Origin: a virus
Virus record (IMG/VR): IMGVR_UViG_3300024353_000005
Coordinates: 17,675 to 81,674 of that record
DNA: 64,000 nt
Reading direction: 5' to 3' (one strand)
The position numbers and the translations under genes are program-made. The notes below the pieces were generated by a model. It did no database searches, was not told where the DNA came from, and was given only the letters and a program-made list of their open reading frames with translations. Positions 2,463 to 48,000 of the stretch are shown piece after piece (position 1 is the first letter of the stretch; every line of letters begins with the position of its first letter).

Positions 2463-2931
2463 TTTTTCTCTTGGTTTGCTTTTTAAATGTGATAACTAAT
2501 ATTCCATTTTTCTCTTCGGTCTCAATAGTATTCAAATCAATCATTCGAGGTAATAATATTTCATCTTTTTCGCCTATTGAAAGAATATCGTCTTTAAGAG
2601 CATATTGATTAGTCCCGCTTACTATTATTTTAAATTTATCTTTCTCATTAAATTTATCAATCATAACATTATTCTTTTCAACTTTTACCCTATGGCTTTT
2701 AATCTTTCTACGGACTGTTCCTGCTTTAGTCCGATACCTTTTTACACTTCTTATTCCAAAATTAAATGCTTCTGGATTACCTAAATTAAATGAGTTCCCT
2801 AAAACACGCCCCCTTATCCCAGTAAGTATTTTTGCTTTTTTAGTTTCTGGTAAAATTTCGGAAAATCTTTTTACTATGTTCACAGGACTTCTCCCTGTGC
2901 TGGTTCTAGGTGGTATACTTCTAAGAGCCAT
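2452..2931 (-). CDS. Hypothetical protein, C-terminus resembles Hsp20/alpha-crystallin
   Basis: C-terminal EEKNGILVITFKK resembles the sHSP NGIL-x-I motif; weak. Confidence 0.4.
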   Translation of the reverse strand: MALRSIPPRTSTGRSPVNIVKRFSEILPETKKAKILTGIRGRVLGNSFNLGNPEAFNFGIRSVKRYRTKAGTVRRKIKSHRVKVEKNNVMIDKFNEKDKFKIIVSGTNQYALKDDILSIGEKDEILLPRMIDLNTIETEEKNGILVITFKKQTKRKNET

Positions 2932-3468
2932 TTTTCAAATCCTTCATTATCTGGTTAAATTTTATATCAATCTCATCAGATTTACAATAATCTGGCAATT
3001 TTTCTTTTAAGAAATGAGCAAGCCCCTGATTGGCTCTCGCTAAATTTAATATAAGTTCAGACAGTTCATTTCGTCTTTTTCTATTAGTTTCTTCCTTCAT
3101 AAGCACAGATAAATTTTCTGTGGCTTTAAGGACTATTTTGACACATTCTTTGAGATTGTCAAATCGTTGCAGGCTTTGATTCATCACAATTTTTTCTCTA
3201 TTCTGCTTAAGTAAGACTTGATTTTGATTAGTTCTTTCAATATTTCCTTTAAGACAGCCTTAAATTCCTTAACCTCTGATATAAACAATCCTAAATTAAA
3301 CATTATTCTCTCCAAAACTTTCCAATAAACTATTGATTTTCTCTAAATGATTTTTGGCTTCTTCAACTGCTTTTTTCTGCTTTTCGGTATGTGGAAAATT
3401 TGCTATAATAGTCTCCAGCATCTTTTTCTGCTCTTTTAATTTTTCAACTACATCCTTAAGATTGTTCA

Positions 3469-3759
3469 TTATTTCCTACCTGTGGTCTCATTCTTGGACT
3501 TTTTCTGCTTCTTATCCTTTTCAATTCTTTCCTTCGCCAGCTTATGTTGTTCTAAAAGGTCTACTTTACCTAATGTTGTTCCTTCCTCTTCTTCTTTCTT
3601 TTTAATTTTAAACCTTGGAGGATTAAACTTAGGTAAACCATATGCACCCATCTCTTTTAGCCAATTCCGTTCCCTGATGGCCTTTGACAATCTTTCATGT
3701 CTTTTTAATACTGAACGAGCCTTCTGTCTTCTTCGTTTTAAGGATTTATGCAAACTCAT
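3469..3759 (-). CDS. PVC-superphylum small basic (signature) protein homologue
   Basis: MSLHKSL..RSVLKRHERL..W..GAYGLPK..RFKIKK matches the recalled MSxHxSL..R(N/S)VLKRxER..W..GLPK pattern of the Chlamydiae/Verrucomicrobia/Planctomycetes small basic protein. Confidence 0.78.
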   Translation of the reverse strand: MSLHKSLKRRRQKARSVLKRHERLSKAIRERNWLKEMGAYGLPKFNPPRFKIKKKEEEEGTTLGKVDLLEQHKLAKERIEKDKKQKKSKNETTGRK

Positions 3760-3780
3760 TTGATATTCTCCATTTAATTT

Positions 3781-4712
3781 TCATCCCCAATATCCGCCAT
3801 ATCTCATGTCAATTGAGAACCATACTATTTCAAGTGCAACCCAAACAAATTCTAATAAAAGAATAAATGCAGTAGTTATCTTAATGTATCTATCAGTAAC
3901 TTTTCCATCTAATAAGAAGTAAAGAAATCTTCCTATAAGACCCTTTTTCTGAAGTTTATATTTATTTCTTCTTCGTTTTTTTATTTTTCTTCTTGTTTTT
4001 CTTGGCATTGATAATTCCTCGTTTTTTCAAATAACGCATAACATCATCTACAATATACCAACGAATATCTCGCAAGCAATCATCTACAATTTCTGTAAGG
4101 TCTTGTTTAGTTTTACGGATATTTGTTAATCTTACTTTTTTTCTTGTCCGTAATTTGGGATGTTTCATTTATTTACCTTTCGCAGTATCATTCTTTTTCC
4201 TTCTTTCCAATTCCTTAAGATTTAATATTTTCAAGCCTTCTTCACGAAGATTACCCGCTACTAAATCCACATCTTTATCGGAAGTCCCTAGATGTTTGAT
4301 TTCGCCTTTCCTCTTTTCTAAAATTTCCTTAAACTCCTCAGTCATCGAATCTCCAGCCTTCTTACCATGCTTCATAGCCAATTCGTATATTTCCATATAG
4401 ATTTCGGGAGTCATAAGCCATACATCATTTGCCATTATACTCTCCCTTATTCCATTTGTCATAAATCTTCTTCAATTTGGCTTGCAGATAGGTATTGCCT
4501 ATGTTCTGCATACAGAACTCATCAATTTTATAGAATAGTTTTTGGGCATCTACCAATTGCTTTTTATAGGCTTCTGCTATATCTTTCCAGTAGTCTGGGA
4601 CTTTACTATTATCAACCATATAAATTGGTCTATGGCAATTTGGACATTTTATTTTATATTCCTGCAAAACTGGCTTTGATAAATCTAAAGATTCGCCCTC
4701 AAAAATACTCAT
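3781..4712 (-). other. Run of four small hypothetical genes (3781-4008, 3962-4168, 4169-4462, 4425-4712)
   Basis: Tightly packed or overlapping minus-strand ORFs; 4425-4712 has a CPNC motif. Confidence 0.6.
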
Positions 4713-4883
4713 CTAATCCTCCTCATAAAATACAATATCGCCAGTTTCTGGGTCATTATATCTTATCGCCTTTGGGTTGTTTATAACATTTTTACCTATG
4801 AGCATCCCTATCAAAGATTTGAAAGGCGAGGTTACTATATCTAATTCACTTATTCTTGCTAATATTTTCATTTCGTCCTCTTT

Positions 4884-5258
4884 TTAACTAAATTCGTAAC
4901 TAGCAAATTCAAAACCATCTATATCCATTATCGTATCCTTTAAATACTCAAGGTTATAGGGAAAATTCTTTTTCATATAATTATTGTGGCTTCTATTCTT
5001 CTTATCTCTTTGGAGTTTTTGAACTAATCTTATAAAACTATTTAAATTAATTTCTTCTCCATACTCATCAAATATTTTTCCGCCCCCTTCAATTTTTTCT
5101 TTTAACCATTTTTTCATTTGCTCCCAAGTTGTGTAAAATTTGCCATTATTATATTGCAAGTGAAATACCCAACCAAAACTATGTTTACCTAAATGCAAGG
5201 TATCATATCTTCTACATTCTTTACATATAGCAGTTCTCAAATAATAATTCGTTCCCAT
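4884..5258 (-). CDS. Phage hypothetical protein
   Basis: MGTNYY..CxxC..HLGKHSFGWVF, a pattern typical of phage hypotheticals; RBS AGGAG upstream. Confidence 0.6.
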   Translation of the reverse strand: MGTNYYLRTAICKECRRYDTLHLGKHSFGWVFHLQYNNGKFYTTWEQMKKWLKEKIEGGGKIFDEYGEEINLNSFIRLVQKLQRDKKNRSHNNYMKKNFPYNLEYLKDTIMDIDGFEFASYEFS

Positions 5259-5388
5259 TACATTTCTCCTTTTACCTTATAAGCAAAATATTTTACTAAA
5301 TTTTTGAAGTCTTTTCTAACTCTCCAACATCTTCTCAATCCTAATGCTCTATATCTATACCAAAATTGAAAAAATCTAATAGCCTCCA

Positions 5389-5991
5389 TTATATCTCCCG
5401 CTTCATTCTATAATTAAAAAACTTGATAAGAATCCTATATGCCAGTTGTTCTGCCAGTTTCGGGTTTCCAGCGAATACAACTTTTATGTTGTGCTTTATC
5501 ATGAGGCTAATTAAAGTGGCTACTATTAGTTTAACACTTACCTCGCCTGGGACTTTTCTCATCTGGGCTAAATCCCTAAACGAGCCTTCTATCAGAAGAA
5601 ACTTATATGGAATTTTTTCCATGCGTTCTATTTCTCGCATAAATCGTTCCCTGTCCCCAGCGAAGTTTCCGAAGAGTTCGTTTATCCTTTTTCGCTCAAT
5701 AATAATCTCGTTTTCAAAACCCTCTAAACTATAATCACCTGTTACCAGTTTTTTCATAACTATTTTTGCTTCTGCCTCTTTACCCTTAAATAAGTAGCCA
5801 CAATTTTCTCTGGTATCAGTAATTATCACAGGGATATGAATCCCTTTCTTGCGTCGCTTTATCCGCTTAAGCCAGTCCTCGCATTTGTAGCTGGTAACTT
5901 TGGTATAAGGGCAGTGCCTCACTCTGTCAAGACCACAGATTTTGCCCTGATTCCAGTATTCGCATAATAGTTTTTCGGTTTTCTTTTTCAT
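5389..5991 (-). CDS. ERCC4 (XPF/Mus81)-domain nuclease
   Basis: IITDTRE, KLVTGDYSL and IIIERKRINEL motifs; likely start ATG 5991. Confidence 0.85.
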   Translation of the reverse strand: MKKKTEKLLCEYWNQGKICGLDRVRHCPYTKVTSYKCEDWLKRIKRRKKGIHIPVIITDTRENCGYLFKGKEAEAKIVMKKLVTGDYSLEGFENEIIIERKRINELFGNFAGDRERFMREIERMEKIPYKFLLIEGSFRDLAQMRKVPGEVSVKLIVATLISLMIKHNIKVVFAGNPKLAEQLAYRILIKFFNYRMKREI

Positions 5992-7983
5992 TAGAATGGT
6001 GAGGTTATCTGTATTTCCTGTAGTTGCTTCCATCGATAGACTCTTCCACATTGGCACTGTAAAAGTTCTCCTGCTACAATAGGAAAGAGTAATAACTCCC
6101 TTTTATTAGGTTTGTATCTAATATCCAATAATTTCATTTTTCTTGAATGAGTATGACAAATTGGACATCTATAATTAGATATTGAGACCCATTGAGTTTT
6201 CATTTTTATCCCAACCTATTCTGGTCGTTTATCCAAAGGCAAAGATCGTTTCATCTGTTCGACATATTCATCCAGATAGCCCTTCACATAGGTAATCATA
6301 TCAAAGCCAAGTTGAAAGGTGGCGATTTCTTGATAGTCGTCTTTGACCTTTTCCTCCACTATATACCGCCCATTCTCCTGTGTAATCCTGATGACTTTGC
6401 CTATTGTGATGATGTTTTTTTCAGCCATTTTCACACCTCTTTATATCCCTATACATTTTATTAATTTGTAAAATCGTCGATAAGCAAAAACCGCTTTTTC
6501 TACTTTCTTTATTAAATATTCTCTTTCACGTTTACTTTTACAATTTTTGACACAAAAACTATTTCCTCGACCATTTAATCTTAAAATTTGAATATTACTC
6601 ATTTATTCCTCCTTTCTATGGTTTCAAAATAGTTTTCAATAACTCCATAGCCTCTTTTTTCTTGAAGCCTGCTTCTTGATATGCTTTATACATCTCATAA
6701 AGACCTTTAGCCATCTCATCTTTTACTTTAAGTAAATTAGCTACAGCTTCCTGCATTTGTCGAAATTGAACATCTGTCATTTTATTATCCTTTCCAAAAT
6801 TATAGAATTTCCCCATATTCATTTAGCCGAGTTGTATCCTTTGGCTCTTCCACAGGAGCTGATGTTGGGATCGTTTCCAAGCCATCTATTTTGCCCTGCA
6901 AAATAACCAGTTCCTGCCTGATTTCCTCATACTTGGCATTGGTCGTTCCGACATCGCCTGCCACCTGCTCAACTTGCTTCTGAACAGAATCATTCAGCCT
7001 TCTCAAGAGCTGATGGACTGGGGTGTTACGCATTTCTTCACGATTTTGGGCTGTGTCGTGTTCGGGACACAGTTTCGCTATCGCCTTGTCTTCCACTGCT
7101 TCAACTAATGTGCCACAAACAAAACATGGTATCTGTTTAGCCATTCTACACCTCCTTATCCTCACTTAAATAAATTGTTGAAATGGACCGTGTTCCACAA
7201 ATTTCTTTCTCTTTAAATACTCGAATAACCTCACTACCTGTTCCATTATCGTAAGCTAAATATACAGGTAAGGCACCATCATATTTTTGTAATTCATATA
7301 TAAGTTCAAGAACTGTCATTCATCCCCCTATCTATAAATAAATTTTTATCTGGTTTTCCCATAGTAGAATAATTATGATAATTGCCACACCTGTTACACC
7401 ATATTTCTAATAAGTATTGTTGCTCATAACCATATCCTAAATCACAACCATCATTATGACAATTTAATCTTTTAGTCAGAAACCATTTTAGTAGATGAAA
7501 CATTCGCTAACCTATTCCTCTTTGTCTTCCAAGAAATTATTACATTTCCTGATATGGCTTGTAATCTTTATGATATATTGATTAGGATCTATATTTTCTA
7601 TCATATCCAAAAGCTTCTTATACTTTGTATAGATTCCACAAGTATTGGCATGCTGGCACTTTTGGCATATACATCTATGAGAATCGATTACCACAGACTT
7701 TTTCAGCGACATGGCTACTACCCTATCCTTCTTTATTGACTTTATACTTTCTTCCAGAATCTATCTTGCCTAAACCATGGCATACAGGACAAAGTTTCGT
7801 GCCATACATCTTTCTTCCAGCACCCGAAATGGTAACTGTTATCACTCGGCCTTCTTTACATCTTGAGCATTTTATATATACCCTCATGTCGTCATCTGTT
7901 ATATTAACTTCTTGCTGCTTTTTCGTGCTGTGTATCTGTTCAGCAGGATTTCGTTTCCAGAATTTTCTAAACTTGATGATCAT
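5991..7983 (-). other. Cluster of small hypothetical, often Cys-rich ORFs (5991-6203, 6216-6434, 6616-6822, 6800-7165, 7306-7503, 7512-7712, 7723-7983)
   Basis: Contiguous minus-strand ORFs, several with CxxC pairs. Confidence 0.6.
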
Positions 7984-8490
7984 TTACTTTCCTTTACTAA
8001 CTCCACGAACATTAAATCCCTTGGTAAATTTAGCCCGTAGCAAAACCAAGCTGTTTGGAACCATGCTCCACTTCCCTTTCCAGAAGGGAGTTTCAAAATT
8101 GATCCTCTTGTTTGGTATTAGCAGTTGTATTCCATATTTTTTGTATAATTTACCTCTTTTTTTGCCCTCTAAAGCAGTTAGTGGCATAAGCAAAGCAAAA
8201 GGTTTTTCCAACTCATAACACCTAGCTAAAAATTTATCTTTAATTGAGTATGGTGGATTTGTAACTATACAATCACACTCTTTATAACTGTTTAAAAAAT
8301 CAAAATCCTTATCACTCCCTATTACATCAAACCCTTCACTTTTTAAAAAATTAAATAGATTTCCTTTCCCCCACGCACACTCCCATATAATCCACTCCCT
8401 TTTCAAATAAGGTAATAAGAAATCTAATGCTATTTTAGGTGTTTGGAAATTATCGGGTCTTCCATTACTCTGAATTTTTAATTTTTTCAT
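7980..8490 (-). pseudogene. Small phage DNA N6-adenine methyltransferase with an apparent +1 frameshift near 8087
   Basis: WECAWGKG and IVTNPPY motifs. Removing one C from ACTCCCTTC gives ..RINFETPSGKGSGAWFQTAWFCYGLNLP.., ending in an ATGA overlap with the next gene. Confidence 0.75.
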
Positions 8491-8815
8491 CTTTATCCTT
8501 ATAAAATTTTAGTAATAGGTAACACCAGACAGCAATTTTAATTATATCCCTTTCTCTCCTATCATTCTTGAATCTAATTAATCTTTTTAGTATATCACAA
8601 ATAATAAAGCTCACATACCCATCTTCTCCCACAACCTGTGGCATAATGTCTATTGTTTCTGCCTTATCTTTTTCTGCTCCAGTATATTTATCTGTCCCTT
8701 GAAGTATAATACTTTTCATATGTCCTATGAACTCATCGAAATAAGATAACTTTCTCGGAATATCCTTCTCTTTAGCTTGAATTTTTCTGCTTTTGTCCCT
8801 GTCATTTTTTAACAT
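8465..8815 (-). CDS. Hypothetical protein
   Basis: ORF track; DIIKIAVWCYLL C-terminal helix. Confidence 0.6.
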   Translation of the reverse strand: MLKNDRDKSRKIQAKEKDIPRKLSYFDEFIGHMKSIILQGTDKYTGAEKDKAETIDIMPQVVGEDGYVSFIICDILKRLIRFKNDRRERDIIKIAVWCYLLLKFYKDKDEKIKNSE

Positions 8816-9066
8816 TCTTCAATCTCCTTTTCCAAAGGTTTCACAATATTATCAAACCTGTCCTTATCAACCTCTTTCGGAATCGCCTTTAATAAGTCTA
8901 TCGAAAATTCTGTGTTTAATCTTTGCTGTCTTACTACATAGTCCATAATCATCTTCTTAAAATCATCTGGCTTATCGTTTTTTATGGTCTCTTATAATTT
9001 GCTCGTGAGGGCTGTGTAAGCCTTCTGGAATTTCTGTATCTGCTGGATTTTCTTAAGCCGTTTCAT
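8809..9066 (-). pseudogene. 86-codon hypothetical gene interrupted by an in-frame TAA at 8992-8994
   Basis: MKRLKKIQQIQKFQKAYTALTSKL*ETIKNDKPDDFKKM..EIEEC fills the gap between its neighbours exactly. Confidence 0.6.
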
Positions 9067-24683: not shown

Positions 24684-25397
24684 TTATTCTCCCCGATTAA
24701 ATTTTAGAATTTTTTGTTTCGCTTTATGTAAATCTTTTAGTTCATGTTCCCAAAAGATTAAAGTCTGATAACCGTAGGCTCCATAAACTATTGATCTTCG
24801 CTTATCTCTTTTTTTAGTATCTTTTCTATTGTGCCAATAATCGCCATAGAGTTCTATTATTTTCTTCTGACCATTATAATTTATGAAATCTGGATTTAAT
24901 CCTCCCAATATAACTTTTCCATTTCCGACATATTTATATTCATTTGGCAAGATTTTCTGAAGAAATTTATCTAATAGTTTCTCTGGTTTATTAGGCTTTA
25001 TCCTTAAAGATTTCATCCATTTTTTAATTACTCTATTTTTATACTCTTTATTCTGCCATCTCTTTAACATATTTCTTTTAAATTTTCTTTTCGTTTCTAA
25101 ACTATGTTTATAACCTTCCAACGATTTACTAATTCGATCTTTAATATTTTTGGAGATAATATGACCTTTTAGGGCTTCGCTTTTAGTTCTTATTTTTATA
25201 CTGTATTTTTTCAAATATTGTCTAATGGTTACATCGCTACAATTAAATATTTTAGCAATTTTCATTGATGATTTTCTATTCTCGATATATTCTTTAATCA
25301 AATATTGTTTAGTTATGGGGTATTTTTTGGGCCTTTTTAAAGCCGCTAATCTCATTTTCTGTTTAGTCTCTTTTGTATGTTTTGAGTTCAGCTTCAT
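24684..25397 (-). mobile_element. Free-standing homing endonuclease (NUMOD3 + Vsr/DUF559-like)
   Basis: HTKETKQKM and HSLETKRK repeats; PDFI..IIELYGDYWH..FWEHEL. Confidence 0.8.
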
Positions 25398-26189: not shown

Positions 26190-26531
26190 TTACAAGTACC
26201 CCTTAAGAGATTTTTTCAAATTATTTTTAGCACAATTGAGATACTCACTAACAGCTTGTTGACTAATTCCCAAAATTTTCCCTATTTCCTTCTGCTTCTT
26301 ATTCTTTATGAAGTATAATTTAATACATTGTCTTTGTTTTGGTGTCAAACTTTTTAGGGCCTTTCTAACTACTTTAGCAAGGTGCTCATGCTTCTTCTGA
26401 GTAACATCAAACTCGTTTTCCTCCTCCTCAATGAGAATTTCCAAAGGAGTCTTGGGTTCTTGTTCCTCTCTTAACAGTTCCAAAGTTCGAGCAGTCTTAC
26501 CTCGAAATATTTCCTTGTATTGTTTGGGCAT
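26190..26531 (-). CDS. Stand-alone sigma70 region-4 HTH protein
   Basis: ALKSLTPKQRQCIKLYF..QKEIGKILGISQQAVSEYL. Confidence 0.85.
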   Translation of the reverse strand: MPKQYKEIFRGKTARTLELLREEQEPKTPLEILIEEEENEFDVTQKKHEHLAKVVRKALKSLTPKQRQCIKLYFIKNKKQKEIGKILGISQQAVSEYLNCAKNNLKKSLKGYL

Positions 26532-26540
26532 AATTTTCTC

Positions 26541-27101
26541 CTATCTCACAGTTACATTAACATCAGTCTCTACATCTGTTTCATTAGTATTCTCATTGGT
26601 GTTAGTATTATTATTTGTTGTTGTAGCAGTTCCAGACCCACCTGTTGCAGAATTAGTTATAGTTCCTGTATAAGCTGTAGAAGTTATATTGCCCACAGAA
26701 GAACTACTTTGAGAAGCAATAGTACCCATATTTACACTTTGATTAAATCTTATTCTTTTAATAGCGTCTGTTACTTCTCGTAATGGCATACCTTGAGCAA
26801 TTAAGTACTCTCTCATTGCTTGAGCTTTAATAATTTCTATCTTAATTTCGTGTTCTCTTTGTATCTCAGTCTCGACTTGTCTTGTCCTCTCAATCATCCG
26901 TTGTTTATAATGCTCCTGCTCGGATAATCTTTCTTTCTCAGTTAAATTTCCCTGCAAATAGATACACCCATCTTTTTCGTAGTACTCACCTTTTAAATCT
27001 AATTCATTAGCTTTTGCTCCCCTTCCAAAAATTAGCAGAAAACCTACTATCACCAAAATTGTCACCACCATCCTAATTAAGCCTACTACTTCTTTTCTCA
27101 T
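26541..27101 (-). CDS. Exported/membrane-anchored protein with Thr/Asn-rich tail; first clear gene behind the riboswitches
   Basis: Signal-like N-terminus ending AKA; tail GTATTTNNNTNTNENTNET; GAGG RBS. Confidence 0.7.
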   Translation of the reverse strand: MRKEVVGLIRMVVTILVIVGFLLIFGRGAKANELDLKGEYYEKDGCIYLQGNLTEKERLSEQEHYKQRMIERTRQVETEIQREHEIKIEIIKAQAMREYLIAQGMPLREVTDAIKRIRFNQSVNMGTIASQSSSSVGNITSTAYTGTITNSATGGSGTATTTNNNTNTNENTNETDVETDVNVTVR

Positions 27102-27290
27102 TCTATCCTCTTTCTGCTTGTATTATAGCCAAATTTTTCTCTGGCCTCTATGAGCTATTTCTGAAGTTGCTACTTTACTATTCCATTTACAGTTTTTATT
27201 TTGACAATCTTTACAACCATTAAGCCTATCGAGTTCCTTTTTATAAAATTTATCCTTCTTTTCTCCCCTTTTCCAAGCCTCCTTTTCCAG

Positions 27291-27333
27291 AAAATAAAAA
27301 AGCCGAACCACCACAATATTCGGTAGCTCGGCT
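27291..27333 (-). terminator. Intrinsic terminator of riboswitch B
   Basis: AGCCGAGCUACCG/UGGUGGUUCGGCU stem followed by a U-tract; overlaps the aptamer 3' end. Confidence 0.85.
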
Positions 27334-27392
27334 ATCATTTCTGACCCGTAGCTTTGCGCTTCGCTATTTCAGCGAATTGCCTTTATCGTAAT
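27310..27392 (-). ncRNA. c-di-GMP-I (GEMM) riboswitch B (promoter-distal)
   Basis: AUUACGAUA-AAGGCAA-UUCGCU GAAAU AGCGAA-GCGCAAAGCUACGGGUC..GAUAGCCGAGCUACCGAA-UAUUGUGGU; 9-bp P1. Confidence 0.88.
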
Positions 27393-27445
27393 CTAAATTG
27401 TATATTAAAGTTACACTACTTTAGAGATCCTCCAATTTCTCTCCT

Positions 27446-27486
27446 AAAATAAAAAGCCGAATTGCCTATCCTTCGGCAACTCGGCT
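27446..27486 (-). terminator. Intrinsic terminator of riboswitch A
   Basis: AGCCGAGUUGCC/GGCAAUUCGGCU stem followed by UUUUAUUUU. Confidence 0.87.
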
Positions 27487-27549
27487 TCGCTTAAAGCGAC
27501 CTTGAGTTTTGCGCCCCACTAATTCAGTGGGTAGCCCTTTCGGAGATAG
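27466..27549 (-). ncRNA. c-di-GMP-I (GEMM) riboswitch A (promoter-proximal)
   Basis: CUAUCU-CCGAAAGGGCUA-CCCACU GAAUU AGUGGG-GCGCAAAACUCAAGGUCGC..GCGAAGCCGAGUUGCCGAA-GGAUAG. Confidence 0.82.
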
Positions 27550-27574
27550 TATTAAATTTCAACCTGTAATATTA

Positions 27575-27603
27575 AGTATACACTATAAAATCTAATTTGT
27601 CAA
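27575..27603 (-). promoter_or_regulatory. sigma70 promoter driving the tandem riboswitch leader
   Basis: TTGACA-17-TATACT. Confidence 0.85.
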
Positions 27604-27607
27604 GTCC

Positions 27608-29113
27608 CTAATTTTTATTTTTTTCAAATCTACTTTTTTCTCGTAATACCTGCAAAAATATATCTACTAATTCTGGATCAAATTGTTTTCCCTTCTCTCG
27701 TTCCAATTCTTCTATTGCTTGTTCCTTAGTTTTAGGATTTCCATTATAGGGTCTTTTGTGTATCATTGTATCATAACTATCTAAAATAGCAGTAATACGA
27801 GAAAGTAAAGGGATATTCTGACCTCTCAATCCATCAGGATAACCAGTTCCATCCCATCTTTCGTGGTGGCGTAATATGTAATCCGCTATATGAGAAAATT
27901 GCCTTACCCCTTTTAAAATGTTATAGCCTAAAATTGGATGAGTTTTCAGCTTTTTCCATTCTTTTTCAGTTAAAGGTTCTTTTTTATGAAGTATTCTGTC
28001 TGGAATGCCTATCTTACCTATATCGTGAAATTTAATAGTATAATGTAAATCTCTTATTTCTTGAAGTGATAAATGAAGTCTTTTAGCGAATTTAGCTCCC
28101 AATTTTATTAATCTATTATGATGTATTTGAGTTCCCATATCTTTTTGTTTCATAACTTCAATTAAACTATTAATAAATTCTTTCTGAGCAGTGCCTTCTT
28201 TATCCATTTTATCTTTATACATTTCTTCATCTGCTTTAGATATATATCTATTTAAATCTTCTTTTTTAAATTCAGTTATTGTAATAGATCCAATAGCATA
28301 GTTAATATTAATTTTTTTAACTTCTAAAGAATAAGATTTACATTTTCTATTTAATTTCTTAATAATTTCTTCTGCACGACTTCGGTCTGTTTGTTTAAGA
28401 AGGATTGAAAATTCGTCCCCCCCAATTCGTGCTACTACATCGTCTTGTCTTACGCAATTTCTCATAGACTTTCCAAAATATCGAAGTATCTTATCCCCTG
28501 CTGGATGTCCCCAAGTATCATTAATAATTTTTAAATGATTTACATCTATTGAGATTATAGAAATGGGATAGTTTCTTTTAGTATTTATTCTTCTCAATTC
28601 TTCTTCAAAATAAGTTCTGTTATATAACTCTGTCAACGAGTCGTGATAGGCATTATATTTTATCTGCTCTTGTAATTTTCTGTGCTCAATTCTACTTTTT
28701 TGTAATTGCAATTTTATTTGTCGCTTTGTTTGTCTTGCCATATACTCTTGAAAACTTGTTTTTATAACCTCCAGAAAAGTTAATGTGTCATAGGGTTTTA
28801 TCAAAAGCTTTTTAATTCCTATTTCTAACAATTGTTGTGTTTGTTTTAATGTTAAAATTAAACCAGTTATTACTATAATACAAGTGTCAGGATAATTTAA
28901 TTTTATATAATAAGCTAAATCTACCCCATTTCCATCAGGTAATTCAATATCAATTATTACTACTCCAATATTATTTTCTTTGAAGATTTTCAACCCTTCC
29001 TGAAAAGAATTAGCAATTAAAGTTTTATAACCCTGAGCTTGAAGATTTATAGAAATAGCTTTTGCTAATTCTTTGTCATCTTCTATAATAGCTATTTTAG
29101 GAATATTATTCAT
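27608..29113 (-). CDS. REC-GGDEF-HD-GYP protein (diguanylate cyclase / c-di-GMP phosphodiesterase)
   Basis: REC: IIEDD, IIDIELPDGNG, ITG, IKPY. GGDEF: DSLTELYNR, NDTWGHPAGD, RQDD I-site, RIGGDEF. HD-GYP: HDIGK, HHERWDGTGYP. Likely start 29113. Confidence 0.95.
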   Translation of the reverse strand: MNNIPKIAIIEDDKELAKAISINLQAQGYKTLIANSFQEGLKIFKENNIGVVIIDIELPDGNGVDLAYYIKLNYPDTCIIVITGLILTLKQTQQLLEIGIKKLLIKPYDTLTFLEVIKTSFQEYMARQTKRQIKLQLQKSRIEHRKLQEQIKYNAYHDSLTELYNRTYFEEELRRINTKRNYPISIISIDVNHLKIINDTWGHPAGDKILRYFGKSMRNCVRQDDVVARIGGDEFSILLKQTDRSRAEEIIKKLNRKCKSYSLEVKKININYAIGSITITEFKKEDLNRYISKADEEMYKDKMDKEGTAQKEFINSLIEVMKQKDMGTQIHHNRLIKLGAKFAKRLHLSLQEIRDLHYTIKFHDIGKIGIPDRILHKKEPLTEKEWKKLKTHPILGYNILKGVRQFSHIADYILRHHERWDGTGYPDGLRGQNIPLLSRITAILDSYDTMIHKRPYNGNPKTKEQAIEELEREKGKQFDPELVDIFLQVLREKSRFEKNKN

Positions 29114-32100
29114 TTTTTCTCTCTCAAATAAACCATTCGTCTTACACATCCCGCAGGAATTAGTATAGGCTCATCTTCAGGATGACCATTTATTCTCTTC
29201 AGAACAACTTTCTCTTTATCCTTATGCCATAAATAACCAACGATTTTTATTTCAGGCAATACTAAATCTTCTATTTTCCATACTCCTTTACCATAAGAAA
29301 TCATATCTACGAGGGTAATCTCTACTCGCTTGTATTCTCTTTTCCTTTTACCCATCTTTATTCTCCTTTATATTTCCATAATTTTGATAATCAGCCAACA
29401 AATTAAAAGAATTAATAATACTGCTAATAACAGCATCTCATTTCCCCTTCTTTCGATACTCATTAAATAATCTATTTCTTTCCAGCGGACAATCCTTACA
29501 ACTCTTTCTCTTACAAATCCAACAAAGAGGCTCTGTGTTCTTTAAGATATAATCAACATTTTCCTCTAAATGTTTAATTGCCATTGCTTTTTGTAAAAAT
29601 ACTCTTGGATTAATTTTCATTTATGTCCCTTTTTTATACTAAAAATCTTCTTACAACTCATACAAAGACTTACTCGTTGTTCCTGACTATTTGAAAATTT
29701 AATGACTACCTTCTGTGTATTCTCACTTTTACAATATGGACAACAATTATTTTTCATTATATCTCCTTTATCTATCTGGTTTATATTCCTCTTTTTCCCG
29801 ATAAATTAAGTAAGAAACTAGAAACAAGAAAACGATTAATCCTATTCCTATCTTAAGTAAAAACATTTTATAGTCCCCCTTGCTATTTTATATTAAAGAT
29901 GAAAGAAGACAAGATAAAATCTCTGTTAAGATATAGCCAATCCGTAAAATCAACAAGCCAAAAACTATTGCAAGACTAACAACTGCTACAGTAAATATGT
30001 TTTTATAAGTCATTTTATCCTCCTTATTTATAGTTCTACTATTTTGTAATCTTGGGCACAATTCACTCTCGCCCATTGTTCGGCACTATGCCCACTTCCA
30101 AAAAAGATAACATCCCCCTCTTCATTTCTATCTATACTACAATTGTCATAAGTATCTTTAACATACTCGATTACGATGTACATTATTTTATTCTCCTATT
30201 AAAATTCTTTTTTTACTCCGAGATACTTTGCTATCTTCTCTGCAATTTCTGCTTTCTTCTTAAGGTCAGTCAAATCAATATGAAAATAGTTAGCATACTC
30301 TCTTAATTGTTTTGTGGTTAATTCACATCTTAGCATTTGCCAATCGGTTTTTCTCATTCCTTTATGCCTCCATTCCAATATGTTTACAACAAGTTTTACA
30401 CATTAAAACTACTGCTTCTTCATTATTTTTTTCCAGAACCAAATTAGCTTTTTCATATTTTATCATTAAATCTATTCCGATATCTTTAATAGTAAAAGCA
30501 AAGGGTGATTGTTCATTGCCACAAGTCTTACAATTAGGATATAATACATTTTCATCTCTACTATATACTTTTGTGCCTAAGATTAATTTACTCATTTTTT
30601 CTTTCCCTTTATTATCTCTACTAATTTAGAACATTCATCCAATATTTGACTTTCGTTTACTTATCCTAGCCCTTCTAAATACAAAGTCTGTATTAACATA
30701 ATAATAATCATAATATAAATCTGAAGATATAACTAAATTATTATGTCTTCCCTTATCTTTTCCAAGAACTTCTAATAATTTTTGGGTTTCTTCAGGAGAT
30801 AACCAATCTACCAATGTAAAAGCCTTATCATTCATAGTCCACTTAGCATCCATTATCTTTCTCCAACTTTTGTTAATCTCTATTTTTCTTTACTCCCTTT
30901 AATTGCTTTCGACCCGCCATTGATTTAACCTATATCAGGCTGTCCCGTTCTTTCGGTAGCCTACCACTTTTAATCTATATGGTTTCTTGACAGGCAAACA
31001 AGACAGCCTATTTTATTCCTTTTCAATATCTAATTCTAATAGTATATCATCTAAAATATCCGAAGCGGAAGGCAACTGTATTTCCTCATTTTCAACATAG
31101 ATGCCGCTTAAATATTTGTCAATGAGTTTTTCTACTGTTGCATAATCCTGTCTATCAATTTTAATTTTAGGCATTACCTTCCTCCTTTGGTTCTATTGGA
31201 GAATTACTACTCCCTCCCTGTGATTGACTATAACAATATATTGTTTGTTTTAATTTATTTGCTATTGGTTGAGCTAATTTTTCGCCCCTGTCAAATTCTC
31301 CAATCGTTGGTTTTTCATCTTGATATAATACTTCTATTATTTTGTCAACCCAACCCTGTCTTGTTCTATAAGTTTTTCTTCCCTTGCCTACCACCACAAA
31401 AGTTAAATGCTTATCTCTTAAATCAACTCCTGTATTACTATATAAATCATCAGAATTAGTGTGCCAGGGTGCTTTTAATTCTTCTATTGTTCCATCTTCC
31501 AAAGTAAAAGATAGTGTTCTTCCACCAAAACCATCGGAATTTTTGCCACCAGATACATAGATATTATCAGCAGGATTATCCTGAATAGCGTATAACCAAA
31601 TTCTGCCTGACTTTCCAATTACCTTTTTGTATCGTCTTTCCTCTGCTTCAGAATGACCGCATAGCATCGGTTGTCTATCAATTATATAATCCATTTTTCC
31701 ATCTCCCTTATTCTTGAAAATCAACTTTAGTCCCATTCTCATAATAAGCCTCGTCTGGATGATTTTGGCAGTATCCAAACTCTATCCCAAAGTCATTGTA
31801 AGCCCAGAAAGACTTGAGGCACTTCGGGCACCTGCCCCTTGATACCCAGAATTTTGTCCCTAAGTGTTTAATCAAAGCATAACAAATATCTAAAAACCAA
31901 ATTATTACAAATATAATATATATTAACAAAAATTTATTCATTTTTATTCTCCTAATCCTCATCGTAAATAAATCCGCACTCGCTACAAACAACCTCATAA
32001 CTGCCCCTACTGCTTCGCATAACTATATCCCCACCGCAGACTATACAAGGTCTTTTCCTGTTGGTATATTCCAGCCTTTCTTCAGAAGATAAATTTCTAA

Positions 32101-45074: not shown

Positions 45075-48000
45075 ATGAAAGAAAATACCAAAAAAGATTT
45101 AATAGTTCATCCCAGAAAGATAACTCCTGATATGAAAGCAGTTAAATTATCGGAGGTTGTTTCAGTTGTAGATTCATTTGTAATAAAAAATCCATTTCTA
45201 TTTTTGACAGGTGGGATAGTTAATCGGAATAAAACGAAGGGCGACTTTGATATTTTGTATCGGGCTGAGTATTTACCAGATAGGATGCTCCAAGAAATTA
45301 AAGAAAGACTAATGAATAGACTCAATGACGATTTGAGAAGTCGGAGTCACCTGATGACAGATGCCTACCATGGCCCTTTTACCTCAAATATCCCATTGGG
45401 AAAGTTACAAGTAACTAAAGTAGAAGAAAAGGCAGAGAAAAAATCTTATATCCCAGTCGGTTCTTCTGGTGTTGAAATGGGAGAAGATATTCACTTAAAT
45501 GATATTCTGAAAGGTCTTTCCTCTTTTGTATTTGAAGAAAAGTTTCTATGGTTAGTTGGCGAACTACCAGCAAATGGCGAAACCAAAAAATATATTGATT
45601 TTGTTTTTTGCTATCCAAAACTTCCATTATCTATTTCGGTTGCCCTTAAGTTTAGAATATGGAGAGCACTCCCCAAAGAATACTGGCATCGAATTAGGTA
45701 TCGGTTCGACACGAACTTCGAGCCATCCGATACAGATATTTGTCTTGGGAAATTAGAATTTATTTTAAATCCAGAATTTAATATAGTTGAGATGAGCTTG
45801 AAAAATTTAACTGCTAAACAAAGAGCTGCATCACCAGAAATAAGAGCTCAAGCAAAAGCCTCGTCGGAAGAAGACAAAGTTAAACTGTTTAGATTTTATT
45901 TACCGCTTAAACCAATTAGAGGATATTTCCCAAGGGAAAGACAGACTATCGGTTTATTTGTATCAATTGTAACAGATGAAAGTAAAGGGCCTTGGTATTC
46001 GACAAAGAAGTATGATGGATTAAATCTGGAGTTTCATTACGATAAAGGCAAAGCAACAATTATTAGCGAAGATGGAGAAGACAATACTGGTAGGTTTCCA
46101 AAGTTAATTGAAGAATTGAAGGAACTCGGTGCAGATAATTTTTCTTTTATAGCAGAAATAGAGTTATGGAAAACGGTGGATGGAGAATTGAAACATCAAC
46201 CGAGAGAAGCTGTTATAGGGAGAGTTCACAGGAAAGGCGAACCAGACGAAACTGGTTTGGTCGCAAATGTTTACGATATAACCTATCTGAATGGTAAAGA
46301 TATTCATAATGAGCCATTTGAAAAACGATTGCAAGCTTTGAAGTCTTTAAAATTTTTACAGGCAACTTGGAGAAAACCAAATTTAAAATATAAACTAAAT
46401 AGAGCACCAGCAGTCTTGAGCAAGTCAGCAGAAGATATTAGAAAGCATACACAATTTTTAAGAAAACTTGATGGTTCAGAAGGAAATGTAATTAAACTCT
46501 CATCTGCCAAATATAGATTGGATGGGAAAAGAAGTAATCAATGGAAATTCCATAACTCTGGAACTGCTAATGTAATTGTTATAGAAGCCATAGAAACAAA
46601 AGTGAAAAACATATGGAATTATCTTTTTGGACTTGACCCGCAGGATAAGAAAGTCCCAGAAAAACTTTTGGTTGAAATTGGTGGAAAGAAATATCTCAAG
46701 GTGGGAAAAACATTTTCTTCTGCTCGACCAATGAAAAAGGGCGATGTATTTTTGCTAGAATATGAAACTCTTAATTTGGAACGAAATGAAAAAACCGATG
46801 AAATAAAGGTAACGGCTTGGGCACCGAGGGAATTGGGAAAAGTTGAAGAAAAAGTTGATACAATAGATAATGCTGTGAGGAAAGCGAAAGCTGGATTAGT
46901 ATTTCAAGAAAAAATAATTCCAGTGGAAGGAGAAATTATTTACAAGATTGGATTAACTCCAGATTTGGAAAAACAAGTCTTGCTTTATAAGGAAGTTCCA
47001 GCCGAGGATAAAGGCCCTTATAAATATATCTGTCATCATCATTGGAGAGGCAAGAGCTGTCATACTGATTTACGTATTGTAGCAAAGCGTGGCGAATATG
47101 CAATTGGTTGGACGATAGATGATTTGATAAAGGGTGCTATTAAAGAGCCAGTAGTAACTATGAAGGAAGCGAAAAGAATTGAGAAAGAAGGCAAAGCATT
47201 TAAGATAGATTGGAAAACTGGAAAATTCGCTATGCGGAGAACTGCTGCTGGACAAGTAAAACCGACTGAATTACGAGCACACGAAAAAGCCAGAATACCA
47301 ATTGAATGGATGGAAGTTCAAGGAGTCGCTCCTGCTGGAACAGTTGGGGCAACAAAGGAGTATCCAGCTGTATTTTTAATTATAGATAAGGGTAAGGCAC
47401 AATACTTGACACAAAAGCCAGCTTTTCACGAATATTGGATGGATGGCACGCTAAAAGGCAGATTGGTTTTTCGCAGATTAGAGCAGAAAGCTTTTAAAAG
47501 TTTAGTGGAGAGGGGAATTTTACCAGAGTATATCTTGAATAGTTTTAATGCTTCATTGGCTTATGTAAATAAGGAACTCAATCCAACTGAAATTAATTGG
47601 GTTCCATTGACTAAGAATGGTTGTATAGTATTTAGGAAATCTGATTTAAGAAAAATTATTTTGCCACCGTCGGAAATTCCAGAAGGGAAACCTCGTGTAG
47701 GAGTTTTCTGGGTTGCGATTCAACCTATTGTGCAAGTTCCTTATGTTATTTCAAGACGAGCAGTAAATAAGAAGTGGGTTCCACCAAAAGGCTTTTCAGC
47801 ATTACCGTTAAATTTGAAAAAGAAAGTTCCAGAAGAGTTTAAATACTGGACAAAAACAAAAATAGGCGAAAGACGAAAAATTAGGGATGCTTATTTTGAA
47901 TATTTGAAAAAGCAACCGAAAAAGAAAAAAGTAGTAGAGAAGAAAGTGGGAACATTTCCATTTGCATTACATTGGCATTGGTTTCGTGGTCCAGTAGTTG

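What the first reader, a model, noticed from the sequence alone, without database searches (positions are those of the whole stretch)
27291..27549. Both riboswitches are predicted transcriptional ON switches in series
Seen: each terminator's 5' arm (AGCCGAGUUGCC; AGCCGAGCUACCG) is the aptamer's P3 3' strand plus junction, and the P1 3' strand lies within the terminator, so aptamer and terminator are mutually exclusive. Inference: ligand must bind twice for read-through, giving a sharper threshold and low leak, as suits a commitment decision.
Basis: partly seen in the sequence, partly recalled or inferred. Interest (0 to 1): 0.82.

Follow-up and report, generated by a model that had tools for sequence, protein, structure and literature searches.

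The report
Tandem c-di-GMP riboswitches in a phage
A phage carries two RNA sensors for the bacterial signal c-di-GMP in a row, each overlapping its own transcription stop signal, so its downstream genes are probably read only when the signal is high; this design is already known from bacteria.

Summary
On the minus strand, a consensus promoter (27603-27575) is followed by two complete c-di-GMP-I riboswitches. Each is an aptamer (A 27549-27466, B 27392-27318) overlapped by a 12-13-bp intrinsic terminator with a U tract (27486-27445, 27333-27290).

In both units the terminator's 5' arm is the P3 3' strand, the junction with the C92-equivalent, and the first P1 3' base. Aptamer and terminator therefore cannot coexist. 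Without ligand the terminator fold is 12-13 kcal/mol more stable. No antiterminator exists that could invert the logic. The best reading is two ON switches in series.

Both units, with pair-keeping changes, recur in one diverged relative phage (106 kb). There both aptamers pass Rfam's threshold.

The same mechanism and its lower leak and more digital response were shown experimentally for Bacillus thuringiensis Bc3-5. Hundreds of c-di-GMP-I doublets are catalogued. This is a new member of a known kind.

The unusual part is the phage setting, directly after a phage diguanylate-cyclase gene. This scan has already noted that layout on other DNA: the 106-kb relative (e1-6050945, e1-6050947).

Caveats: aptamer A scores 1.5 bits below Rfam's cut-off, both P2 loops are pentaloops, and there are no RNA or binding data.

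The parts
27608..29149 (-). Upstream phage gene: REC-GGDEF-HD-GYP (513 aa), a putative c-di-GMP synthase/phosphodiesterase. This is context, not part of the switch.
   Evidence: Pfam Response_reg 1.4e-16, GGDEF 3.8e-39, HD_5 8.5e-35. The relative phage has a 172-aa GGDEF-only gene in the same place.
27575..27603 (-). Sigma-70-type promoter, TTGACA-17 nt-TATACT. The transcription start is inferred near 27568.
   Evidence: 11 of 12 consensus matches. It is one of 3 such sites in the window, against 0.09 expected. Both hexamers are identical in the relative, with 3 changes in the spacer.
27466..27549 (-). Aptamer A (c-di-GMP-I). P1 5' strand 27549-27541; P2 27535-27511 with pentaloop GAAUU; P3 27508-27478; junction G27477 and C27476; P1 3' strand 27475-27466.
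   Evidence: RF01051 33.5 bits, E 2.8e-6. RF03167 31.0 bits. All modelled pairs are canonical. Key residues checked. The ortholog in the relative scores 50.9 bits.
27445..27486 (-). Terminator A. 5' arm 27486-27475, loop 27474-27467, 3' arm 27466-27455, U tract UUUUUAUUUU 27454-27445.
   Evidence: Terminator scan. 12 canonical pairs, -22.3 kcal/mol. The stem-loop differs from the relative at 1 position, G-C to G-U.
27393..27444 (-). Spacer between the two units.
   Evidence: No consensus minus-strand promoter. It is the least conserved part of the leader, with a 10-nt indel and several substitutions against the relative.
27318..27392 (-). Aptamer B (c-di-GMP-I). P1 5' strand 27392-27387; P2 27380-27356 with pentaloop GAAAU; P3 27353-27325; junction A27324 and C27323; P1 3' strand 27322-27318.
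   Evidence: RF01051 57.1 bits, above the cut-off of 35. Canonical pairs. Key residues checked. The ortholog scores 49.3 bits.
27290..27333 (-). Terminator B. 5' arm 27333-27321, loop, 3' arm ending at 27301, U tract UUUUUUAUUUU 27300-27290.
   Evidence: Terminator scan, 13 pairs. -21.0 kcal/mol. In the relative, two wobble pairs become Watson-Crick pairs and the loop differs.
27102..27289 (-). About 190-nt purine-rich spacer between terminator B and the first gene. The relative lacks it.
   Evidence: No consensus promoter on this strand. No Rfam match except one chance-level hit, which spans terminator B's 3' arm and U tract and the first 14 nt of the spacer (27276-27314; E 4).
26541..27101 (-). 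First gated gene: 186-aa protein with an N-terminal hydrophobic segment. Function unknown.
   Evidence: No Pfam or PHROG match. The Atlas gave nothing above 0.79. 42% identical homolog directly after the tandem in the relative. 6 further homologs in metagenome proteins.
26190..26531 (-). Second gated gene: 113-aa sigma-70 region-4-only protein.
   Evidence: Pfam Sigma70_r4 4.6e-12. PHROG sigma-factor families. 78% identical in the relative.

Best explanation
The leader holds two complete, independent c-di-GMP-I riboswitches in series in one phage 5' leader. Each is a kinetically controlled transcriptional ON switch.

Transcription starts at the consensus promoter, or reads in from the upstream cyclase gene. 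As each aptamer emerges it folds into P2 and P3.

If c-di-GMP binds and closes P1 before the next roughly 10-20 nt are made, the P3 3' strand, the junction C and the P1 3' strand stay locked. The terminator cannot nucleate, and RNA polymerase runs on.

Without ligand, the 3' arm captures those bases into a 12-13-bp hairpin followed by a U tract, and transcription ends.

A transcript must pass both checkpoints to reach the 186-aa gene, the sigma-region-4 gene and whatever follows. Basal leak therefore multiplies down, and the dose-response is somewhat steeper.

Shown here: the aptamers, the terminators, their overlap, the energetics and the conservation. Inferred: ligand binding, read-through, the kinetic regime and the biological purpose.
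For: - Family matches: B 57.1 bits; A 33.5 bits with E 2.8e-6.
- G20, A47 and C92 equivalents are present in both.
- Terminators at 27488-27453 and 27333-27301.
- 7 of 11 and 7 of 10 P3 pairs, plus 2 P1 pairs, share bases with the terminator stem.
- Terminator state -38.5 and -30.5 kcal/mol against aptamer state -26.2 and -17.0 kcal/mol.
- Prefixes that end before the 3' arm fold as P2+P3 (plus P1 in A). Prefixes that include it fold as the terminator.
- The whole-leader minimum-energy fold has both terminators.
- z-scores -4.45 and -4.12.
- No consensus minus-strand promoter between the units or in the spacer before the ORF.
- One independent relative phage keeps the promoter hexamers, both aptamers and both terminators. 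It is seen as two identical contig copies, 5240 of 5240 nt. Its aptamers score 50.9 and 49.3 bits.
- A's P2 shows two double compensatory changes, C-G to U-A and C-G to G-C (read from the cmscan alignments).
- All 3 changes in the 12-pair cores of the two terminator stems keep pairing. The optional 13th pair of terminator B (G-U) has no standard counterpart in the relative, whose stem is 12 pairs long.
- The spacer between the units has a 10-nt indel.
- At least 7 other c-di-GMP-I aptamers from metagenomes and genomes have the same terminator overlap, and some are tandem.
- Published precedent: Bc3-5 has the same overlap, is ON, and its tandem form gives lower background and a more digital response (PMC4759541). 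In the pilM ON switch, aptamer and terminator are mutually exclusive (PMC9262584). 347 doublets and 12 triplets of c-di-GMP-I are catalogued (PMC9481103).
Against: - Aptamer A is 1.5 bits under RF01051's cut-off.
- Both P2 loops are pentaloops (GAAUU, GAAAU), not the GNRA tetraloop of the consensus. The P2 loop is the most variable part between the two phages. Tertiary docking and affinity are therefore uncertain.
- In the relative, B's P1 3' strand is changed without a matching 5' change. Only a shifted register that I drew by hand would keep a P1.
- The nearest-neighbour gap of 12-13 kcal/mol in favour of the terminator exceeds any plausible binding energy. The switch can therefore only work kinetically, within a short window.
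- There is only one independent relative.
- The consensus scan cannot exclude a non-consensus or phage-specific promoter in the 190-nt spacer that would bypass the gate.
Confidence: 0.75

Rival explanations
1. Only aptamer B still senses c-di-GMP. Unit A is a decaying duplicate whose terminator acts as a constitutive attenuator, so the leader behaves as a single ON switch behind a fixed damper.
For: - A scores 33.5 bits, under the cut-off of 35.
- Its P2 loop is GAAUU.
- Its P3 aligns with one unpaired or mismatched position in the cmscan alignment.
Against: - A keeps G20, A47 and C92 equivalents and an 8-pair P1.
- Its ortholog passes the cut-off at 50.9 bits.
- From P3 through terminator A, 58 of 60 positions are identical to the relative, while the adjacent spacer has a 10-nt indel.
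- P2 changes are compensatory.
- A constitutive 12-bp terminator directly behind a consensus promoter would mostly silence the operon.
Confidence: 0.13
2. The aptamers respond to another cyclic dinucleotide (for example 3'3'-cGAMP, as in the GEMM-Ib variants) or to a variant ligand, as the RF03167 label might suggest.
For: In E-value mode, clan competition reports both as c-di-GMP-I-GGC (RF03167).
Against: - Both scores are below RF03167's cut-off: 50.4 and 31.0 against 59.
- Both have A, not G, at the A47 equivalent, and G, not A, at the G20 equivalent.
- The G-versus-A rule for c-di-GMP against c-AMP-GMP is stated in PMC9481103.
- Canonical aptamers elsewhere also get the RF03167 label, so the label is not diagnostic.
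- The neighbouring gene is a GGDEF cyclase.
Confidence: 0.05
3. The units are OFF switches, or act on translation rather than transcription.
For: In the relative, the Shine-Dalgarno sequence of the first gene lies within about 10 nt of terminator B's U tract.
Against: - An OFF switch needs a terminator that can coexist with the bound aptamer, plus an antiterminator. Here the only terminators share 9 pairs' worth of bases with the aptamer.
- In the window, the start codon lies about 190 nt after terminator B, too far for occlusion.
Confidence: 0.03
4. The main product is the short terminated leader RNA, of about 115 or 275 nt, acting in trans as an sRNA or a c-di-GMP sponge.
For: A consensus promoter drives two strong terminators, so short RNAs should be abundant when ligand is low.
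Against: - The terminated forms adopt the terminator fold, which destroys the binding pocket.
- The coding operon directly downstream is syntenic in the relative.
Confidence: 0.03

Closest known systems
Bc3-5 triple-tandem c-di-GMP-I riboswitch of Bacillus thuringiensis CT-43 (PMC4759541; abstract and sections 4 and 6 read)
   Same: - Complete aptamer-plus-terminator units in series in one 5' UTR.
- The terminator uses the binding-site C, the P1 3' strand and part of the P3 3' strand.
- ON logic.
- The tandem form lowers background and makes the response more digital.
   Different: - Two units rather than three.
- A phage genome rather than a bacterial one.
- Pentaloops in P2.
- The regulated genes are a small membrane protein and a sigma-region-4 protein, rather than cspABCDE.
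- Not tested experimentally.
Catalogued c-di-GMP-I doublets (347) and triplets (12) in bacterial genomes (PMC9481103; passages read)
   Same: The same class in tandem, each unit with its own expression platform. They are interpreted as pseudo-cooperative devices for binary lifestyle decisions.
   Different: The word 'phage' does not occur in that paper's main text. Here the doublet lies in a phage contig, directly after a phage GGDEF gene.
pilM 3'3'-cGAMP (GEMM-Ib) transcriptional ON switch of Geobacter metallireducens (PMC9262584; passages read)
   Same: A homologous aptamer fold. Aptamer and terminator are mutually exclusive, and control is kinetic with a short binding window.
   Different: It is a single unit. 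It has A rather than G at the G20 equivalent, so its ligand is different. It is a bacterial pilus gene.
c-di-GMP-I riboswitches Cdi1_4 and Cdi1_5 in C. difficile 630 prophage regions, in the phiCD119-like lysis module (PMC3649979; passages read)
   Same: c-di-GMP-I riboswitches carried on phage-derived DNA.
   Different: They are single units in prophages of a cultured host. The passages read mention no adjacent phage cyclase gene.
The 106-kb relative phage IMGVR_UViG_3300008516_000204 (loci L004, L006; earlier scan notes e1-6050945 and e1-6050947)
   Same: An orthologous promoter, tandem aptamers, terminators and downstream operon.
   Different: - The upstream enzyme is a 172-aa GGDEF-only protein rather than REC-GGDEF-HD-GYP.
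- A's P2 loop is a canonical GAAA.
- B's P1 3' strand differs.
- The first gene starts about 20 nt after terminator B rather than about 190 nt.

Membership tests
c-di-GMP-I riboswitch aptamer (Rfam RF01051) | Covariance-model score at or above the curated gathering score (35 bits) | tested here: met
   Aptamer B: 57.1 bits, E 1.6e-8 over the 64-kb window.
c-di-GMP-I riboswitch aptamer (Rfam RF01051) | The same score criterion, applied to aptamer A | tested here: inconclusive
   33.5 bits, 1.5 bits under the cut-off, E 2.8e-6 in the 81.7-kb record. Its ortholog in the relative scores 50.9 bits.
c-di-GMP-I riboswitch aptamer (Rfam RF01051) | Three-helix junction: P1, P2 and P3 can all form | tested here: met
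   Hand-built models follow the cmscan alignments and contain no non-canonical pair. A has 8+8+11 pairs and B has 5+8+10. Prefix folds give P2 and P3 spontaneously.
c-di-GMP-I riboswitch aptamer (Rfam RF01051) | Ligand-contacting nucleotides equivalent to Vc2 G20, A47 and C92 (numbering recalled; the role of the G20 equivalent is stated in PMC9481103 and PMC9262584, and a binding-site C in PMC4759541) | tested here: met
   G27536/A27510/C27476 in A and G27381/A27355/C27323 in B, placed by the cmscan alignments.
c-di-GMP-I riboswitch aptamer (Rfam RF01051) | GNRA tetraloop on P2 docking into a receptor in P3. This is the consensus form. From recall, a second type lacks the receptor, so this feature does not strictly define the family. 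| tested here: not met
   The P2 loops are GAAUU (A) and GAAAU (B). The relative has GAAA (A) and AGUAU (B).
c-di-GMP-I riboswitch aptamer (Rfam RF01051) | Selective binding of c-di-GMP | not testable with these tools
   Needs in-line probing or ITC.
Transcriptional ON riboswitch with direct aptamer/terminator competition | An intrinsic terminator (G+C-rich hairpin plus U tract) immediately 3' of each aptamer | tested here: met
   27488-27453 (14 pairs) and 27333-27301 (13 pairs), each followed by a U tract. 4 sites found against 1.1 +/- 1.0 in shuffles. -22.3 and -21.0 kcal/mol.
Transcriptional ON riboswitch with direct aptamer/terminator competition | The terminator stem shares bases with helices needed for ligand binding, so the two folds exclude each other | tested here: met
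   7 of 11 and 7 of 10 P3 pairs, and 2 of 8 and 2 of 5 P1 pairs, use terminator-stem bases. So do the C92 equivalents.
Transcriptional ON riboswitch with direct aptamer/terminator competition | Ligand lowers termination | not testable with these tools
   Needs a transcription termination assay or a reporter. No RNA run holds the stretch.
Tandem complete riboswitches for one ligand (pseudo-cooperative type) | Two aptamer-plus-platform units on one strand in one leader, with no promoter between them | tested here: met
   The spacer 27444-27393 has no consensus minus-strand promoter.
Tandem complete riboswitches for one ligand (pseudo-cooperative type) | Both units are kept under selection | tested here: met
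   Both are present in the one diverged relative (leader 78% identical by blastn; first-gene protein 42%). Changes keep pairing or are compensatory. The sample is a single relative.

The most novel reading that the evidence does not exclude
The doublet is the sensor half of a phage-autonomous second-messenger timer.

An early phage gene makes c-di-GMP. It is REC-GGDEF-HD-GYP here and GGDEF-only in the relative. In this phage it may also degrade c-di-GMP, under control of a host kinase acting through the REC domain.

Only when the pool crosses the double threshold does transcription proceed into a sigma-region-4 regulator and the replication genes. The phage would then time or gate its middle programme with a messenger it produces itself, rather than merely eavesdropping on the host.
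Probability: 0.35. Interest if true: 0.8.

Novelty: new member of a known kind. Interest (0 to 1): 0.45.

Why it matters
For riboswitch biology, this is one more tandem c-di-GMP-I ON doublet. It fits the published picture of low leak and a more digital response, and changes nothing in principle.

The added interest lies in the carrier. It is an uncultivated phage from a subsurface metagenome. The phage places the doublet between its own diguanylate-cyclase gene and an operon with a sigma-like regulator, and a diverged relative keeps that layout.

If the gate works as predicted, it would be a compact, self-contained example of a virus using a bacterial second messenger to schedule its own gene expression. 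It would be easy to test with a reporter and an inducible cyclase.

My four literature searches for phage, riboswitch and GGDEF or c-di-GMP combinations showed no description of such a layout. I judged this from the titles and abstract beginnings in the listings.

Tried and rejected
Searches for more relatives:
- The search for related loci with the upstream enzyme in viral contigs gave no relative.
- blastn of the leader plus two genes against GenBank phages gave no match.
- tblastn of the 88-aa protein against GenBank phages gave no match.
- The portal protein's best match was 25.5% identity to Bacillus SPO1-like phages, so no host can be inferred.
- The search for related loci with the 186-aa and 88-aa proteins returned only the same two identical contigs.
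- The search for homologous proteins found 6 homologs of the 186-aa protein (47-53% identity) in Logan and ENA assemblies. Their DNA context could not be fetched.

Wide DNA pattern:
- It proved mostly unspecific. Only 12 of 243 matches had a c-di-GMP-I core motif upstream by my regex.
- 10 of those 12 loci held a clan aptamer above threshold. L080 and L083 were false positives.
- None is a close relative of this phage.

Other checks:
- No RNA holder was listed for the stretch. The one DNA run is probably the source sample, a subsurface metagenome.
- The protein-atlas search on the 186-aa protein gave nothing above 0.79 and no structure match above TM 0.35.
- The sequence-only alignment of A against its ortholog reported 'broken' P2 pairs. 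I rejected these as artefacts of a loop-length difference and read P2 from the structure-aware cmscan alignments instead.
- I considered the 71-aa ORF that starts at the AUG inside aptamer B (27338-27123). It has no Pfam match, and I did not adopt it as a gene.
- I did not fold proteins or test complexes. Neither bears on the claim.

Papers:
- Supplementary files were not consulted. The Bc4 structures of PMC4759541 (its Fig. S3) were therefore not seen, only the text that describes them.

Full report
Where the window lies. The window is part of an IMG/VR virus record of 81,674 bases, classed as linear, with a CheckV completeness estimate of 77%. G+C is 34.7%. Genes run on the minus strand from about 43 kb down to 1 kb. 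These include a primase-helicase, methyltransferases and a peptide deformylase. A plus-strand block from about 43.6 kb onward starts with a portal protein. The finding lies in the minus-strand block.

The observation. On the minus strand, the stop codon of a 513-aa REC-GGDEF-HD-GYP gene (27608-29149; Pfam Response_reg 1.4e-16, GGDEF 3.8e-39, HD_5 8.5e-35) is followed within 5 nt by a promoter, TTGACA-17 nt-TATACT, with 11 of 12 consensus matches (27603-27575). It is one of three such sites in the window, against 0.09 expected. Two riboswitch units follow.

- Unit B's aptamer matches Rfam c-di-GMP-I (RF01051) at 27391-27319 with 57.1 bits (cut-off 35, E 1.6e-8).
- Unit A's aptamer, at 27545-27471, scores 33.5 bits on RF01051 (E 2.8e-6 in the record) and 31.0 bits on RF03167. 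That is 1.5 bits below the curated threshold but far from chance.
- Clan competition in E-value mode labels both as c-di-GMP-I-GGC. Both scores are below that family's cut-off of 59. Both RNAs carry A, not G, at the A47-equivalent. Canonical aptamers from other loci also receive that label. I therefore treat the label as uninformative.
- The G20, A47 and C92 equivalents are G27536/A27510/C27476 in A and G27381/A27355/C27323 in B. The Vc2 numbering is recalled. PMC9481103 and PMC9262584 state the role of the G20 position in discriminating c-di-GMP from c-AMP-GMP.

Terminators and overlap. The pattern scan lists minus-strand terminator-like sites at 27488-27453 (14 pairs) and 27333-27301 (13 pairs), each followed by a U tract. 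In all, 4 sites were found in 3 kb, against 1.1 +/- 1.0 in shuffles. I built helix models for both aptamers from the cmscan alignments, and every modelled pair is canonical.

- In A, the terminator 5' arm (27486-27475) consists of the two bulged bases and seven paired bases of the P3 3' strand, the junction GC (the C is the C92-equivalent), and the first base of the P1 3' strand.
- The rest of A's P1 3' strand lies in the terminator loop, and its last base is the first base of the 3' arm.
- B is built the same way.
- By count, 7 of 11 (A) and 7 of 10 (B) P3 pairs, and 2 of 8 and 2 of 5 P1 pairs, use terminator-stem bases.

Energetics and order of folding.
- The terminator state is -38.5 (A) and -30.5 (B) kcal/mol. 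The aptamer state is -26.2 and -17.0 kcal/mol.
- Prefixes that end before the 3' arm fold as P2+P3, plus P1 in A. Prefixes that include the 3' arm fold as the terminator.
- The minimum-energy fold of the whole 476-nt leader shows both terminators and both P2 hairpins. Both units take the same local fold as in isolation. The same fold also predicts weak long-range pairs between the 5' leader and the spacer, and around terminator B.
- Each unit folds much better than dinucleotide shuffles, with z -4.45 and -4.12 and 0 of 200 shuffles as good.
- The default state is therefore termination. The only way ligand can act is to hold the aptamer and block the hairpin, which is ON logic.
- The 12-13 kcal/mol gap is larger than any plausible binding energy. 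The switch must therefore be kinetic, deciding within the roughly 10-20 nt between completion of P1 and completion of the hairpin. This is an inference. The homologous pilM ON switch is described the same way, with mutually exclusive folds and a binding window of about a second (PMC9262584 passages).

Could the gate be bypassed or inverted? No consensus minus-strand promoter lies between the units or in the 190 nt between terminator B and the first start codon. No further strong minus-strand terminator lies in the next 18 kb, where terminator-like sites are at chance level (10 against 8.6 +/- 2.9) and none on the minus strand has more than 7 pairs. No alternative downstream hairpin exists that could make an OFF platform. 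A non-consensus or phage-specific promoter cannot be excluded.

Relatives.
- A pattern taken from the terminator found two viral contigs. Each has the same two aptamers.
- The two contigs are identical over 5240 of 5240 nt, so they count as one relative. It is a 106,111-bp phage with direct terminal repeats, rated 100% complete. Its aptamers score 50.9 and 49.3 bits on RF01051.
- Synteny is kept: an 84-aa gene, a 172-aa GGDEF-only gene, the promoter, the doublet, a 193-aa homolog of the first gated gene (42% identity), the sigma-region-4 gene (78%), an 88-aa gene (90%), and onwards.
- In the leader alignment, both promoter hexamers are identical. The stretch from P3 of A through terminator A differs at 2 of 60 positions. 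The inter-unit spacer has a 10-nt indel and several substitutions.
- A's P2 carries two double compensatory changes, C-G to U-A and C-G to G-C (read).
- In the 12-pair core stems of the two terminators there are three changes, and all keep pairing: one G-C to G-U, one G-U to G-C and one U-G to U-A. The optional 13th pair of terminator B (G-U) has no standard counterpart in the relative, whose stem is 12 pairs long.

Results against my reading.
- The P2 loops differ between the phages: GAAUU against GAAA, and GAAAU against AGUAU.
- The relative's B has a changed P1 3' strand without a matching 5' change. Only a shifted register that I drew by hand would restore a P1.
- There is only one independent relative. 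Further searches returned nothing new.

The same design elsewhere. Of 243 matches, 12 had a c-di-GMP-I core upstream, and 10 of those 12 loci hold a clan aptamer above threshold. In at least 7 of them (L031, L055, L085, L092, L096, L159, L203), the coordinates show the aptamer's 3' end overlapping the terminator match. L031, L159 and L085 hold tandem copies. The platform is thus a recurrent natural design.

Comparison with what is known.
- PMC9481103 reports 347 doublets and 12 triplets of c-di-GMP-I, more than for any other class. It interprets them as devices for binary decisions (passages).
- PMC12452182 finds c-di-GMP riboswitches significantly enriched as tandem complete units (passages).
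- PMC4759541 describes Bc3-5. The terminator uses the binding-site C, the P1 stem and part of P3. The units are ON. Double and triple forms gave lower background and higher fold change than single units, following the Welz-Breaker equations (sections 4 and 6).
- c-di-GMP-I riboswitches in prophage regions of C. difficile are on record (PMC3649979 passages).

The sharpening is modest. For two identical independent units, the ligand span for 10 to 90% read-through drops from 81-fold to 40-fold, while leak multiplies down, for example from 10% to 1%.

Novelty and verdict. The finding is real and its interpretation is sound, but it is a new member of a known kind. The unusual part is the carrier and the neighbour: a phage that places the doublet directly after its own cyclase gene and before a sigma-like regulator. 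My searches (listings only) showed no paper on such a layout. This scan has already noted the layout on the 106-kb relative (e1-6050945, e1-6050947), and a first-stage note on this same genome describes it too (e1-6125820). I give the two-ON-switches-in-series reading a confidence of 0.75. The main rival, at 0.13, is that only B still senses. Interest is 0.45.

Noticed in passing
window 27102-27289 (-): A purine-rich spacer of about 190 nt separates terminator B from the first start codon. The relative lacks it; there the gene's Shine-Dalgarno sequence follows terminator B within about 10 nt. An orphan AAAGGAGG (27284-27277) is retained in the window. A 71-aa ORF (27338-27123) starting at the AUG inside aptamer B crosses the spacer and has no Pfam match.
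   Followed up: partly
window 24684-25397 (-): A 237-aa ORF resembles a homing endonuclease (weak NUMOD3 and Vsr/DUF559 Pfam hits; PHROG HNH endonuclease). It sits between the 55-aa and 57-aa genes of the gated operon. In the relative those two genes are adjacent (L006 4429-4596 and 4607-4780). This looks like a mobile insertion.
   Followed up: partly
window 27603, 33383, 36966 (-): Three near-identical consensus promoters, TTGACA-17 nt-TATACT, lie on the minus strand (3 found, 0.09 expected). They suggest host sigma-70-type early transcription units.
   Followed up: partly
window 46226-46309 (+): A third, weak RF01051 match (15.9 bits, E 0.055) lies inside the 1164-aa ORF. It is most likely chance.
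   Followed up: no
L248 1692-1772 and 3598-3678 (-): Another viral contig fragment (IMGVR_UViG_3300036859_000996, 4.6 kb) carries two strong c-di-GMP-I aptamers (68.4 and 66.4 bits) 1.9 kb apart. They are not in tandem.
   Followed up: no
L085 (Ga0209515_10000418), 2523-9021: Seven c-di-GMP-I-clan aptamers above threshold lie within about 6.5 kb of one metagenome contig, on both strands. Two on the plus strand are about 100 nt apart.
   Followed up: no
window 27608-29149 (-) versus L006 2053-2571 (+): The enzyme upstream of the doublet differs between the two phages. It is REC-GGDEF-HD-GYP (513 aa, GGDEF motif) in the window and a 172-aa GGDEF-domain-only protein with an SGDEF motif in the relative.
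   Followed up: partly
Rfam clan CL00126 labels: With clan competition, aptamers that have the canonical A at the A47-equivalent are often reported as RF03167 (c-di-GMP-I-GGC). The probable reason is that this model includes P1. The label alone does not show a variant binding pocket.
   Followed up: partly
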